The notes below the pieces were generated by a model. The model made no database searches. It saw only the letters and a program-made list of their open reading frames with translations, and was not told the origin of the DNA. A DNA stretch of 16,133 nt from a virus (Duplodnaviria; Heunggongvirae; Uroviricota; Caudoviricetes). Below are positions 2,054 through 15,083 of the stretch, piece by piece. Within the stretch, counting starts at the first letter, position 1. Every line of letters begins with the position of its first letter. Where the stretch lies: positions 64,001-80,133 of IMG/VR virus record IMGVR_UViG_3300027808_000017; one strand, given 5' to 3'. Made by a program: the position numbers and the translations under genes.

Positions 2054-2148
2054 AACACCCTAGGTGCGCTAAAAAGTATTAATATATAAAGAACATGGAG
2101 TTGTTAGTAAAAACTCATCCGTATATGCGAGGGTTTATCTAGGGTGTT
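2054..2148 (-). repeat. 10-bp inverted repeat closing an AT-rich spacer
   Basis: AACACCCTAG at 2054-2063 and CTAGGGTGTT at 2139-2148; overlaps the end of element A. Confidence 0.5.
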
Positions 2149-2230
2149 TATATAAGCACACAATATCTCTTTCGCTTAGTAGAGCCTGTCTTATCGGGCA
2201 GGGTACTGATATAGTATACTTATATAAACA
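2145..2230 (-). ncRNA. Candidate structured RNA, long-terminal-stem element A
   Basis: TGTTTATATAAGTATAC pairs with GTGTGCTTATATAAACA (17 bp, two G-U on minus). Interior hairpins CCTG/CAGG and CTCT/AGAG. Confidence 0.5.
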
Positions 2231-5001: not shown

Positions 5002-5214
5002 TTAACGCTCAACCTTTTTGATTCGTTTTAGATATTCACGATTGATTAAACCTTCTTCAATCTCACGTAATGCGGTTACTGCATGACCATTTTTTGTTTT
5101 TACTTTCGGGCGATGACCTGCCGTTAATTCTCTAACACGTTGACTTGCTATAAGAATTAAATCGTATCTATTGCCTATAGCATTCACTGCGGCTTCACTT
5201 GTTTGTCTTGGCAT
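5002..5214 (-). CDS. rpoZ: RNA polymerase omega subunit homolog (70 aa)
   Basis: NRYDLILIASQRVREL...VTALREIEEG matches the omega signature. Start at MPRQ (5214) after AAGGA; the longer ORF start lies inside tRNA-Gly. Confidence 0.88.
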   Translation of the reverse strand: MPRQTSEAAVNAIGNRYDLILIASQRVRELTAGHRPKVKTKNGHAVTALREIEEGLINREYLKRIKKVER

Positions 5215-12143: not shown

Positions 12144-12235
12144 TGGTACCCCCGATGAGAATCGAACTCATGTGAACCAATTATCTGTTGCTTACGGGAT
12201 ATAAATCCGCCGTTTTACCATTAAACTACAGGGGC
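12144..12235 (-). tRNA. Atypical tRNA with TAT anticodon and ~22-nt variable region
   Basis: GCCCCTG/CGGGGGT acceptor, normal D and T arms, CCA. Anticodon loop TT-TAT-AT with an A-C mismatch closing it. Confidence 0.65.
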
Positions 12236-12571: not shown

Positions 12572-12581
12572 ATTGATTGAA

Positions 12582-12813
12582 TTTGTAAGCCTACGCCGCT
12601 TTTATCGTAGATTTATTCAGGACTTACCGGCCGCCTAGCCTGACCTCGCTCGCTGCGCTCACGATGGATATCACTTGGGATCCATCCAGCGTAGTCTCCT
12701 TTACAGACCCTTGCAGTTCCCCGCAGGGTGGGAGTTGAACCCATTTGCCTTTTACTGTTTTGGTCCTTCGAAGAAACCTAGACAGCGTGACTTCACTTGC
12801 TGACGCTTACAAA
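12582..12813 (-). ncRNA. ~230-nt structured RNA with a T-arm, manA-motif-like
   Basis: Closing stem TTTGTAAGC/GCTTACAAA; GCGT-CAGCAAG...ACGC-TG; T-arm ATGGG-TTCAACT-CCCAC; helices GATGGAT/ATCCATC, CGCTG/CAGCG and CTACG/CGTAG. The manA resemblance is from memory. Confidence 0.7.
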
Positions 12814-12816
12814 ACT

Positions 12817-12902
12817 TGGTGGAGACGGTTGGACTTGAACCAACAATGCCGCGAGGCGGAAGATTTACAGTCTTCTGGGGTTACCAATTTTCCTACATCT
12901 CC
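12817..12902 (-). tRNA. tRNA-Tyr(GTA)
   Basis: Long variable arm, loop CT-GTA-AA, CCA. Confidence 0.95.
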
Positions 12903-12914
12903 AAAATTTTCATA

Positions 12915-13036
12915 CCATATAGAAACATTTTTGATATCAGTCTAATGCTGGCACATCAGGCCTTTCGCCCCTGCCAGGGGACCGAACAGAGCACCGCGAG
13001 TTGGCGATGATGCCCGTCAAAAATGCTTTTATATAG
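12915..13036 (-). ncRNA. Long-terminal-stem element B
   Basis: CTATATAAAAGCATTTTTGA pairs with TCAAAAATGTTTCTATATGG (20 bp, two G-U, one mismatch). GC-rich interior with CCCCT/AGGGG. Confidence 0.6.
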
Positions 13037-13180
13037 CTACCATATAAAAACACACTGCCGATCATGGCACCGTTGTCCGTGCCTTACTCTAGCCATATAC
13101 TATCCTGTTAAGCTATTAAGATAATACCAGTAATTGAGGCTTCAATCAATACAACTAAACAGTGTGTTTTTATATGGTAG
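13037..13180 (-). ncRNA. Long-terminal-stem element C
   Basis: Perfect 21-bp inverted repeat, 13037-13057 with 13160-13180. One arm includes the CTACCA 3' end of tRNA-Lys. Confidence 0.6.
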
Positions 13181-13250
13181 GACCGGGGAGGTTCGAACTC
13201 CCGACAAATGGATTAAAAGTCCACTGCTCTACCAACTGAGCTACGATCCC
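13175..13250 (-). tRNA. tRNA-Lys(TTT)
   Basis: Loop CT-TTT-AA, CCA. Confidence 0.95.
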
Positions 13251-13256
13251 ATGAAT

Positions 13257-13331
13257 TGGTCCCTCCACACAGATTCGAACTGTGACTTCTCGGATTAAGA
13301 GTCCGGTATGCTACCGTAACATCTTGAAGGG
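13257..13331 (-). tRNA. tRNA-Lys(CTT)
   Basis: CCCTTCA/TGGAGGG acceptor, loop CT-CTT-AA, CCA. Confidence 0.9.
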
Positions 13332-13358
13332 ATAGTACGTATTAGATTGTCTTTTACG

Positions 13359-13430
13359 TGCCATCCCTAGACCTACATGGAATCTAGTGATGACACTATC
13401 GTTTCATTGAACGTTTCATGTCATTTCCTT
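13359..13430 (-). other. RBS plus 7-codon micro-ORF (MKRSMKR) followed by a long hairpin
   Basis: AAGGAA-5 nt-ATG (13419) to TAG (13396), then TGTCATC-A-CTAGA...TCTAG-G-GATGGCA. Confidence 0.4.
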
Positions 13431-13433
13431 TTG

Positions 13434-13814
13434 TTAAACTTTTTCGTAACCTAGGTCTACGTTTTCGCTGTAGTACCCATTGCTTTCACCTAGCCATCGT
13501 ACATCTACATACCCTTTGCGAGTAGCAAACTTATAAAATGTCCAAGTTACTGATTCGTGATATTCATCTTCAAATCCAACCGGAGATTCTCCGGATACTT
13601 CTTCTGCTACTAATAGAGGTTCCCCTACTAGGTCAGACAAATCACCTACGATATCATTGATGCTAACTGATTCGCAACAATCTTGTGAGTGAAAGAAAAC
13701 ATAACGGTCGTTATCATTTTCAAACACCATAGTGCCACCAGTTTCTGTAACTGAAGTAAACACTTTACCCACCATGTCTACTAACTTAGCAGATGAGTCA
13801 TAATCGTAATACAT
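13434..13814 (-). CDS. Hypothetical acidic phage-type protein (126 aa)
   Basis: QDCCESV, TWTFYK and RWLGESNGYYSE motifs; AAGGA RBS. Confidence 0.8.
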   Translation of the reverse strand: MYYDYDSSAKLVDMVGKVFTSVTETGGTMVFENDNDRYVFFHSQDCCESVSINDIVGDLSDLVGEPLLVAEEVSGESPVGFEDEYHESVTWTFYKFATRKGYVDVRWLGESNGYYSENVDLGYEKV

Positions 13815-13838
13815 TACATTTCCTTTCTTTTTAAAATT

Positions 13839-13916
13839 TGGAGTGACGGGTCAGATTTGAACTGACGGTTTTTCGGATTTGCAATCCGATGCAATGGGCC
13901 GCTCTGCCACCGTCAC
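13839..13916 (-). tRNA. tRNA-Cys(GCA), canonical U73
   Basis: GTGACGG/CCGTCAC acceptor, loop TT-GCA-AA, TCCA end. Confidence 0.93.
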
Positions 13917-13923
13917 GTAAATA

Positions 13924-13985
13924 GAGAGTCAGGTTGCAGGACCTAGTGCCTCTTGCGAGGGAAGTATCCAGGCGATATGACTCTC
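13924..13985 (-). ncRNA. Candidate 62-nt small structured RNA
   Basis: Closing stem GAGAGTCA/TGACTCTC, CCTC-GCAA-GAGG GNRA hairpin and GGT-CCTGCA-ACC. Confidence 0.5.
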
Positions 13986-13990
13986 AAACT

Positions 13991-14082
13991 TGGCGTTGAG
14001 TGTGGGATTTGAACCCACGGTCCATATTACTACAGACGACACCTTAGCAGGGTGTTGATTTAAGCCACTCATCCAACTCAAC
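13991..14082 (-). tRNA. tRNA-Ser(GCT)
   Basis: Long variable arm, loop CT-GCT-AA, G73, CCA. Confidence 0.95.
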
Positions 14083-14087
14083 ATATT

Positions 14088-14166
14088 TGGCGCACCGCAC
14101 GGGATTCGAACCCGTGATCTCCGCCGTGACAGGGCGGCGCCTTAGGCCAGACTGAGCTAGCGGTGC
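14088..14166 (-). tRNA. tRNA-Asp(GTC)
   Basis: Loop CT-GTC-AC, G73, CCA. Confidence 0.95.
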
Positions 14167-14176
14167 ATGAACTGCT

Positions 14177-14237
14177 TACAGGACACCCCTATGGGCTTGG
14201 TTGTTTAAGAGTACGCCTACCCAGCGACTCTCCTATA
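14177..14237 (-). ncRNA. Candidate 61-nt small structured RNA
   Basis: Closing stem TATAGGA/TCCTGTA, GAGT-CGC/GCG-T-ACTC hairpin and CCC/GGG. Confidence 0.35.
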
Positions 14238-14241
14238 AAAC

Positions 14242-14316
14242 TGGTACTCGGAAGGGGAATCGAACCCCTCTTACATACGTGAAAGGCATGTGTCCTAACC
14301 GATAGACGACCCGAGC
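14242..14316 (-). tRNA. tRNA-Glu(TTC)
   Basis: Loop CT-TTC-AC, CCA. Confidence 0.93.
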
Positions 14317-14320
14317 ATAC

Positions 14321-14401
14321 TATATGAAAACACACTTCGGATACTGTACTAAACAGAAACTATCCAACACGGGCTATCCCGCTGAAGCATGTTTACATAT
14401 A
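14321..14401 (-). ncRNA. Long-terminal-stem element D
   Basis: TATATGTAAACATGCTTCAG pairs with CCGAAGTGTGTTTTCATATA (two G-U, two mismatches). Interior CGGG/CCCG and CTGT/ACAG. Confidence 0.55.
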
Positions 14402-14405
14402 ACTA

Positions 14406-14636
14406 CTATATGAAAATACATTAGGGAAGTTCTTGACACGCATCACCAACTTGCGTCAAGACCTCATTACGTGCCTAGTTGTTCCGTCGCCTCCCTGGAG
14501 TTTGGTATAGTTCTTGCCCTTTGACTCGATGGTGTCTCGTCATACTCTAGAACCCTCCTGCTTCATGGGTATCCGGTTCGTATCAACCTTCGTTCACCCC
14601 TAACGGACTAGGTAACCCTAATGTGTTTACATATAG
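14406..14636 (-). ncRNA. Long-terminal-stem element E (~230 nt)
   Basis: CTATATGTAAACACATTAGGG pairs with CCCTAATGTATTTTCATATAG. Interior CCTAGT/ACTAGG, CCGT/ACGG and TCTTGAC/GTCAAGA. Confidence 0.6.
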
Positions 14637-14681
14637 TCCCTGTAACTTAAACAGGGCTATATGACAATTAAAATTTTAACG

Positions 14682-14876
14682 AACATTACAACTAGTCTCA
14701 ATCGACTACGTTGTTTAAATATTACTGTGGCAGTAATTTTTCAACTGCCAGCCTCGGGGATTTCTCCCTTTGCTTTATACTCCGAGGACCCATGTTGACA
14801 TGGGTCTCTTGTGGTACCACCGTTTCTCGGCGGTCTCAGAGTAGTTTAGGCTGAGTCACAAACTCATTTAATGTTT
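14682..14876 (-). ncRNA. Candidate ~195-nt multi-hairpin RNA
   Basis: Closing AACATTA/TAATGTT; hairpins TGGCAGT/ACTGCCA, CCTCGG/CCGAGG, GACCCATG/CATGGGTC and CTCAG/CTGAG; no ORF. Confidence 0.55.
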
Positions 14877-14949
14877 CCTGCTTGACTTTTTGCTATTGCT
14901 AGCGTGTCTCGCTTTTTGAAACAACCTGCTTTCTCAACTCATTAAATGT

Positions 14950-14978
14950 ATTATACATCTAATCGGATTTATCGTCAA
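14950..14978 (-). promoter_or_regulatory. sigma70-type promoter
   Basis: TTGACG, 17 nt, TATAAT, with TG extended -10. Confidence 0.85.
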
Positions 14979-15054
14979 TTCTTTTGTGTTGTATTTTTAC
15001 GTCACTCAGAATCTTCAACTCACCTTTGAATCAATCTCTCAACTCATTAAACAT

Positions 15055-15083
15055 AGTATAGCACCAAATGGGTTTATCGTCAA
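15055..15083 (-). promoter_or_regulatory. sigma70-type promoter
   Basis: TTGACG, 17 nt, TATACT, with TG extended -10. Confidence 0.8.

What the first reader, a model, noticed from the sequence alone, without database searches (positions are those of the whole stretch)
12915..14636. Second RNA family: tandem elements closed by ~20-bp TATAT-AAACA terminal stems inside the tRNA array
Seen in sequence: B (12915-13036), C (13037-13180), D (14321-14401) and E (14406-14636) occur as two abutting pairs. Each has a 5' arm like TATAT(A/G)(A/T)AAA..CA and a 3' arm like TGTGTTTT(T/C)ATAT(A/G)G, around unrelated interiors of about 40-190 nt. Departures from perfect pairing are often G-U only on the minus strand, the transcribed strand. 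Inference: either a shared processing signal (RNase III-like stems) that releases different small RNAs from the tRNA polycistron, or a common protein-binding handle carrying interchangeable RNA cargo, as Y RNAs do.
Basis: partly seen in the sequence, partly recalled or inferred. Interest (0 to 1): 0.72.

Follow-up and report, generated by a model that had tools for sequence, protein, structure and literature searches.

The report
RNase III-cut RNA cassettes among tRNAs
Between the tRNA genes of this uncultured lake phage sit four small RNA "cassettes": a shared double-stranded stem that looks like a cutting site for the host enzyme RNase III, each wrapped around a different folded RNA of unknown job, part of a large phage-only family I found in neither Rfam nor the papers searched.

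Summary
The four stems (B-E) are real RNA elements on the tRNA strand. They belong to a phage family: 374 unique copies in 157 related loci, G-U over A-C 340:37 outside one fixed mismatch, clustered at tRNA arrays, no target-site duplications. The consensus stem fits E. coli RNase III determinants in only one register of phage T7 site R1.1 (7 of 10 features, next best 3; permutation p about 0.001-0.003, post hoc). That register predicts cuts 4 nt after a tRNA's CCA and, in many homologs, 3 nt before the next tRNA. Four near-complete relatives encode no RNase III or TROVE protein, so the host enzyme is inferred. The inserts are not filler. B, D and E are covarying structured-RNA families, always stem-enclosed, that move between tRNA neighbours. 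C has only three near-identical copies. Best reading: host RNase III splits the tRNA precursor and releases a swappable set of small RNAs. Their role is unshown; my guess is protein- or ligand-binding decoys. No cleavage or expression data exist. This scan noted the same family before on other DNA (113 notes).

The parts
14405..14637 (-). Cassette E: about 20-bp closing stem around a ~197-nt multi-helix RNA; predicted RNase III cuts 14630|14629 and 14411|14410 (219-nt product)
   Evidence: family of 14 loci with compensatory changes in core helices
14319..14403 (-). Cassette D: closing stem around a three-way-junction RNA; predicted cuts 14396|14395 and 14325|14324 (71-nt product; leaves tRNA-Glu an 8-nt leader)
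   Evidence: 98.7% paired, 9 pairs with two-sided changes, 4 of them in the insert
13037..13180 (-). Cassette C: perfect 21-bp stem whose 5' arm begins in the 3' end (ACCA) of tRNA-Lys(UUU); predicted cuts 13171|13170 (CCA + 4 nt) and 13045|13044 (126-nt product)
   Evidence: only two other copies, near-identical, each behind a tRNA with a different 3' end
12915..13036 (-). Cassette B: closing stem around a junction RNA with an invariant 5-6-bp loop pairing (UGGCA/UGCCA, putative pseudoknot); predicted cuts 13030|13029 and 12920|12919 (110-nt product)
   Evidence: 97% paired, 8 pairs with two-sided changes; the pseudoknot pairs never vary, so they are not shown by covariation
14630..14663 (-). 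Leader hairpin F: a partial copy of the 3' arm plus a short hairpin that pairs with stem positions 0-6 of the first cassette, ending at the predicted 5' cut
   Evidence: seen ahead of the first cassette in 10 loci, with covarying inner hairpin
14674..14685 (-). BoxA-like antitermination element (TGTTCGTTAAAA; TGTTCTTTAAAA in homologs)
   Evidence: sequence; likeness to rRNA-operon boxA is from established knowledge, not tested
14950..15083 (-). Two tandem sigma70-like promoters (11/12 and 10/12 matches) upstream of the E-D-tRNA...C-B transcript
   Evidence: direct repeat D12
13175..13250 (-). tRNA-Lys(UUU); its CCA end is stem positions 0-2 of cassette C
14242..14316 (-). tRNA-Glu directly downstream of cassette D
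12817..12902 (-). tRNA-Tyr directly downstream of cassette B

Best explanation
The stems are processing sites for the host's RNase III, built into a long promoter- and boxA-driven tRNA transcript. Shown: conserved RNA helix, register with tRNA ends, match to RNase III determinants, conserved swappable inserts. Inferred: RNase III cuts between stem positions 6 and 7 on the 5' arm and between 5 and 4 on the 3' arm (2-nt 3' overhang). This frees the upstream tRNA with CCA plus 4 nt for exonuclease trimming, gives the next tRNA a short leader for RNase P, and releases the insert as a discrete 60-220-nt RNA closed by a ~10-bp stem. The inserts are functional RNAs under selection. Most likely (about 45%, inference only) they act as protein- or small-molecule-binding decoys, serving the same counter-defence and host-takeover purpose as the tRNA array.
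For: Consensus 5' CCAUAUA^AAAACACAUU / 3' AGUGUGUUUCUA^UAUGG matches T7 R1.1 (fetched) at positions 8, 9, 13, 14, 15, 16 plus the mismatch at 7. That is 7 of 10, with 3 for the best other register; permutation p 0.0006-0.003. Position 9 (proximal box 2, where G-C/C-G blocks binding, PMC1540722) is A-U in 362 of 374 copies and G-C/C-G in 2. Position 15, where A-U is excluded in natural substrates, is A-U in 4. Position 16 is U-A in 345. The dyad partner of position 9 is position 2, also nearly invariant (A-U 355 of 374), though in many copies it is fixed as the terminal A of CCA. E homologs L106 and L213 have a largely different stem sequence but keep A-U at 2, 9 and 14, U.G at 15 and U-A at 16. 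130 of 140 stems near an upstream tRNA end start exactly on CCA (54 of 64 in the subset not found by the search pattern); 49 end in the first GG of the next tRNA. Buried tRNA ends need opening. Every true B, D and E homolog is stem-enclosed. No phage RNase III in 4 near-complete genomes. The omega gene is E. coli-like, which fits a proteobacterial host.
Against: No cleavage, end-mapping or expression data. The register test was designed after I saw the likeness. None of the window's four stems has the U.G at position 15 that E. coli RNase III strongly prefers on the minimal substrate (they have C-G or U-A; T7 R0.5 and R1.3 also have C-G). 16% of copies have G-C at position 7, a catalytic antideterminant in E. 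coli (PMC1540722). Natural RNase III sites are usually degenerate (PMC3867540, PMC5371410), whereas this family is highly conserved, which could point to an extra sequence-specific binder. The host is unidentified. Nothing here tests the decoy role.
Confidence: 0.72

Rival explanations
1. The stem is an uncut, sequence-specific handle for a phage or host RNA-binding protein (Ro60/Y-RNA-like), and the ends are made by other nucleases.
For: Very high sequence conservation and a fixed mismatch at position 7; 16% carry a G-C there that could allow binding without cutting; a DUF2828/vWA gene lies in the window.
Against: No TROVE match in 5 stem-bearing genomes, and the DUF2828 protein in only 1 of 5. 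Stem sequence can be replaced while the RNase III positions persist. The stems bury tRNA CCA and +1/+2 bases, so they cannot stay intact on mature tRNAs.
Confidence: 0.14
2. RNase III cuts as proposed, but only tRNA release matters; the inserts are near-neutral or selfish passengers, like intervening sequences in 23S rRNA, and are degraded after excision.
For: 130 of 189 insert clusters are singletons; C has no divergent homologs; excised rRNA intervening sequences are a precedent (PMC4990558, abstract only).
Against: B, D and E inserts show compensatory changes and invariant internal motifs. 59 clusters have more than one member. Cassettes also occur in tandem and ahead of the first tRNA (E, D, B), where no tRNA 3' end needs freeing.
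Confidence: 0.1
3. DNA-level elements: MITE-like inverted repeats or integron-like recombination sites that shuffle inserts.
For: Inserts do move between tRNA neighbours: D follows Lys, Gln, the leader or another cassette; C is identical behind different tRNA ends. Near-identical arms could promote recombination.
Against: G-U:A-C bias 340:37 on the transcribed strand; no target-site duplications; copies cluster within a few kb at the tRNA arrays of whole genomes; exact register with CCA; one hit in 185,579 prokaryotic genomes, on a 1.5-kb tRNA-only contig.
Confidence: 0.04

Closest known systems
Phage T7 early-RNA RNase III sites (R0.3-R1.3) and the E. coli minimal substrate uR1.1 (PMC1540722)
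   Same: Helix length, distal-box U-A/U.G, A-U at proximal box 2 and 3, mismatch next to the 5' cut; several near-identical sites in one genome; host enzyme used on a phage polycistron.
   Different: T7 hairpins have 3-5-nt loops and separate mRNAs. Here the loop is a 30-200-nt conserved structured RNA and the flanks are tRNA ends. Positions 10-12 differ from R1.1.
RNase III processing stalks around 16S and 23S rRNA in rrn operons (PMC8708148)
   Same: Long stem enclosing a structured RNA, interleaved with tRNAs, downstream of tandem promoters and a boxA-like element.
   Different: One standard stem carries more than 100 different small inserts that are exchanged between phages; the stem overlaps tRNA CCA and +1 bases.
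T4 species 1 and 2 RNAs (rnaC, rnaD)
   Same: Small stable non-tRNA RNAs inside a phage tRNA cluster.
   Different: No sequence match to B-E and no such long terminal stem in their predicted folds.
GOLLD RNA (RF02032)
   Same: Occurs in the same lake-phage tRNA arrays; in L002 and L004 a family stem starts a few bases after its 3' end.
   Different: GOLLD is one ~800-nt RNA; none of B-E matches it or any other Rfam family.
Bacterial Y RNAs with Ro60
   Same: Idea of a conserved terminal stem with variable cargo.
   Different: No Rfam Y-RNA match; no co-occurring TROVE gene.

Membership tests
Bacterial RNase III substrate | Helix of at least 11 bp from the cut site, about 20 bp in all | tested here: met
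   17-21-bp stems; positions 7-17 paired in most copies
Bacterial RNase III substrate | No G-C/C-G at proximal box position 2; A-U preferred | tested here: met
   A-U 362 of 374, G-C/C-G 2; all four window stems A-U
Bacterial RNase III substrate | Distal box U-A/U.G, A-U excluded at its second position | tested here: inconclusive
   Family: U-A 345 and U.G 211 of 374, A-U 4. Window stems have U-A at 16 but C-G or U-A at 15
Bacterial RNase III substrate | No G-C/C-G at proximal box position 4 (next to the cut) | tested here: met
   All four window stems (A.C, A-U, U.U, U.U); family mostly mismatch or A-U, 60 of 374 G-C
Bacterial RNase III substrate | Actual staggered cleavage by RNase III | not testable with these tools
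   needs in vitro or in vivo end mapping
Y RNA / Ro60 RNP | Match to Y RNA models | tested here: not met
   Rfam scan of the window at E<=1: none
Y RNA / Ro60 RNP | Co-occurrence with a Ro60/TROVE gene | tested here: not met
   TROVE 0 of 5 genomes; DUF2828 homolog 1 of 5; distant folds could be missed
MITE / non-autonomous DNA transposon | Target-site duplications and dispersed copies | tested here: not met
MITE / non-autonomous DNA transposon | No strand bias in wobble pairs | tested here: not met
   G-U 340 vs A-C 37
T4 rnaC/rnaD stable RNAs | Sequence or fold homology | tested here: not met
Any Rfam family (riboswitch, ribozyme, GOLLD, 6S, RNase P, tmRNA) | Covariance-model match for inserts B-E | tested here: not met
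   window at E<=1; homolog loci L002, L004, L005 at gathering score

The most novel reading that the evidence does not exclude
Lake jumbo phages carry a standard, host-RNase III-opened expression cassette that holds a library of more than 100 exchangeable aptamer-like RNAs acting as decoys for host defence proteins or signalling molecules: an RNA counterpart of anti-defence gene islands.
Probability: 0.35. Interest if true: 0.9.

Novelty: new variant of a known kind. Interest (0 to 1): 0.72.

Why it matters
If right, it explains how these phages cut up long tRNA transcripts without encoding a nuclease. It also gives a rule (find the stem, read the insert) that yields dozens of unannotated structured RNA families with predicted ends. 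These are ready candidates for new aptamers, ribozymes or RNA-based counter-defence, and the cleavage claim can be tested in a day with E. coli RNase III.

Tried and rejected
Rfam: no match for B-E (for homolog loci; the list was truncated, so it is not used as a negative). Cultured phages (INPHARED): only tRNA matches and one match over the DUF7448 gene, nothing for E or a D homolog. T4 rnaC/rnaD: no homology. Phage-encoded RNase III or TROVE: none. PDB sequence search of the DUF2828 protein: nothing. Antisense targets of 12 nt or more in the 27.7-kb own contig: one match, treated as chance; the host could not be tested. Divergent homologs of C: none. By-eye likeness of inserts to hammerhead, SRP, RNase P, group II domain V or CRISPR repeats: superficial, not supported by Rfam. 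Literature: nine searches found no description. The 10,006-candidate list of PMC10690425 could hold some inserts anonymously; its supplements were not available.

Full report
Setting. The window is part of a 27.7-kb virus record with 23 tRNA genes, all on the minus strand. Relatives found through the DUF7448 gene include 340-370-kb IMG/VR phage genomes. An E. coli-like RNA polymerase omega gene and sigma70-type promoters suggest a proteobacterial host; this is inference. That these are lake phages rests on my recognition of the sample series and on earlier scan notes, not on a tool field.

Observation. B, C, D and E are present as described, as two abutting pairs. Folding z-scores on the transcribed strand are -4.4, -5.3, -5.4 and -2.5. 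I number stem pairs from 0, where in C positions 0-2 are the CCA of tRNA-Lys. Five of the nine non-Watson-Crick pairs in the window are G-U on the minus strand. The other four are mismatches, three at position 7 and one at position 11 of E.

The family. A two-arm pattern hit only one 1.5-kb tRNA-only contig among 185,579 prokaryotic genomes. No cultured phage matched E or a D homolog. Across fetched loci I count 374 unique stems in 157 of 191 tRNA-bearing loci. With strand-neutral scoring, G-U outnumbers A-C 340 to 37 on the tRNA strand outside position 7, where A.C dominates. In five whole genomes most motif hits cluster within a few kb at the tRNA arrays, and the window copies have no target-site duplications. 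These are RNA elements, not MITEs.

Register with tRNAs. Of 140 stems within 12 nt of an upstream tRNA end, 130 start exactly on CCA; in the subset not selected by the search pattern it is 54 of 64. In 49 copies the next tRNA's first two bases are the last GG of the 3' arm. A search that ignores sequence finds a 17-bp stem starting on CCA for 221 of 2582 tRNAs, against 10 of 2849 shuffles. A tRNA whose CCA or +1/+2 bases are held in such a helix cannot be matured or charged until the helix is opened (established knowledge).

RNase III determinants. I fetched the T7 early region and folded its sites. By the numbering of Pertzev and Nicholson (PMC1540722), the proximal box is pairs 7-10 above the cut and the distal box is U15.G and U16-A. 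G-C or C-G at pair 9 blocks binding, G-C at pair 7 blocks catalysis, A-U is excluded at 15, and natural R1.1 has a U.C mismatch at 7. The phage consensus matches R1.1 at 8, 9, 13, 14, 15, 16 and the mismatch at 7 in one register only (7 of 10; next best 3; p 0.0006 with order shuffled, 0.003 with polarity too; a post hoc test). Counts of 374: pair 9 A-U 362, G-C/C-G 2; pair 15 U.G 211, C-G 108, U-A 47, A-U 4; pair 16 U-A 345; pair 7 G-C 60. Read across the dyad, the lower half also offers a proximal box (U-A, A-U, U-A, G-C, G-C), partly made of the tRNA's own CCA. E inserts in L106 and L213 sit in stems of largely different sequence that keep these determinant pairs. No RNase III gene was found in four near-complete relatives. 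Predicted outcome: CCA plus 4 nt on the upstream tRNA, a 3-nt leader in the commonest downstream arrangement (8 nt for tRNA-Glu after D, 17 nt for tRNA-Tyr after B), and released RNAs of 219, 71, 126 and 110 nt. Caveats: no experiment; the window stems lack the U.G at 15 (T7 R0.5 and R1.3 lack it too); cellular RNase III sites are usually more degenerate (PMC3867540, PMC5371410), although T7's own sites are near-identical to each other.

The inserts. 359 inserts fall into 189 clusters, 59 with more than one member. B: 11 loci plus the window, a multi-helix junction with compensatory changes and an invariant loop pairing that could form a pseudoknot. D: about 30 distinct stem-enclosed copies, a three-way junction with two-sided changes in both inner helices. 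E: 14 loci, variable in length, with covarying core helices around an invariant GGAACAA segment. The searched cores are invariant by construction, so only pairs outside them count as evidence. C: three near-identical copies, no covariation. Every true homolog of B, D and E is enclosed in a stem, and the same insert appears behind different tRNAs or the leader. None matches Rfam. Function is not shown. Compact junction and pseudoknot folds, high diversity, exchange between phages, and residence in tRNA arrays, which are known to counter tRNA-cutting defences (PMC11555353, PMC11464382; abstracts only), make protein- or ligand-binding decoys my best guess, at about 45%.

Y-RNA alternative. The window's DUF2828/vWA gene is present in one of five stem-carrying genomes and TROVE in none, so it is not the general partner of these stems.

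Known versus new. It works like an RNase III processing stalk (T7 R sites, rRNA operons; PMC8708148). Four sequence or structure criteria were tested: three were met and one was inconclusive. Cleavage itself is untested, so membership is probable, not proven. The use of one standard stalk, registered on tRNA ends, to carry a large exchangeable set of structured RNAs was not found in Rfam or in the literature searches; the candidate list of PMC10690425 could not be checked. This scan has noted the family on many other genomes (113 notes). My reading was formed before that look-up, and those notes are not counted as support. Verdict: real, a new variant of a known kind, interest 0.72.

Noticed in passing
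window 12574-12815 (-): About 240-nt RNA with a 9-10-bp closing stem and a T-loop; homologs at about 82% identity over its 5' part in L002 and L004; no Rfam match. A different family from B-E.
   Followed up: partly
window 2145-2230: Fifth long stem downstream of the DUF2828 gene (minus-strand z -4.6), with a homolog in L004. It does not fit the B-E register cleanly.
   Followed up: partly
window 14630-14663; L142, L166, L208, L210, L216, L219, L220, L228: Conserved leader hairpin that copies part of the 3' arm and pairs with the first cassette's 5' arm up to the predicted cut, leaving about 11 bp to the loop. It may be a second RNase III site or a folding switch.
   Followed up: partly
window 14700-14935 (-): Strongly folding ~235-nt block (z -6.2) between promoter and cassette E, absent from the corresponding leaders of L002 and L004.
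   Followed up: no
window 13918-13990 and 14168-14241: Two more short stem-closed elements between tRNAs (Cys/Ser and Asp/Glu); the first folds well (z about -3).
   Followed up: no
related loci, e.g. L083, L093, L097, L125, L133, L141: A second class of AU-rich stems that start on tRNA CCA but differ in sequence (up to 51 copies, some probably chance), often after tRNA-Glu or Leu; consistent with shape-based dsRNA recognition.
   Followed up: partly
L002 7453-7917, L004 3750-4215: GOLLD RNA 3' domain followed within a few bases by a CCA-like end and a family stem, suggesting GOLLD's 3' end may be released the same way.
   Followed up: no
L092, L098, L128, L151, L198: One insert family carries a full tRNA T-arm (GGUUCRAAUCC-like) inside the cassette: a possible tRNA mimic.
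   Followed up: no
window 5002-5214 (-): RNA polymerase omega subunit homolog (best PDB E 3e-12; E. coli omega 5e-12) between tRNA genes.
   Followed up: partly
window 12144-12235 (-): tRNA with UAU anticodon and a long variable region.
   Followed up: no
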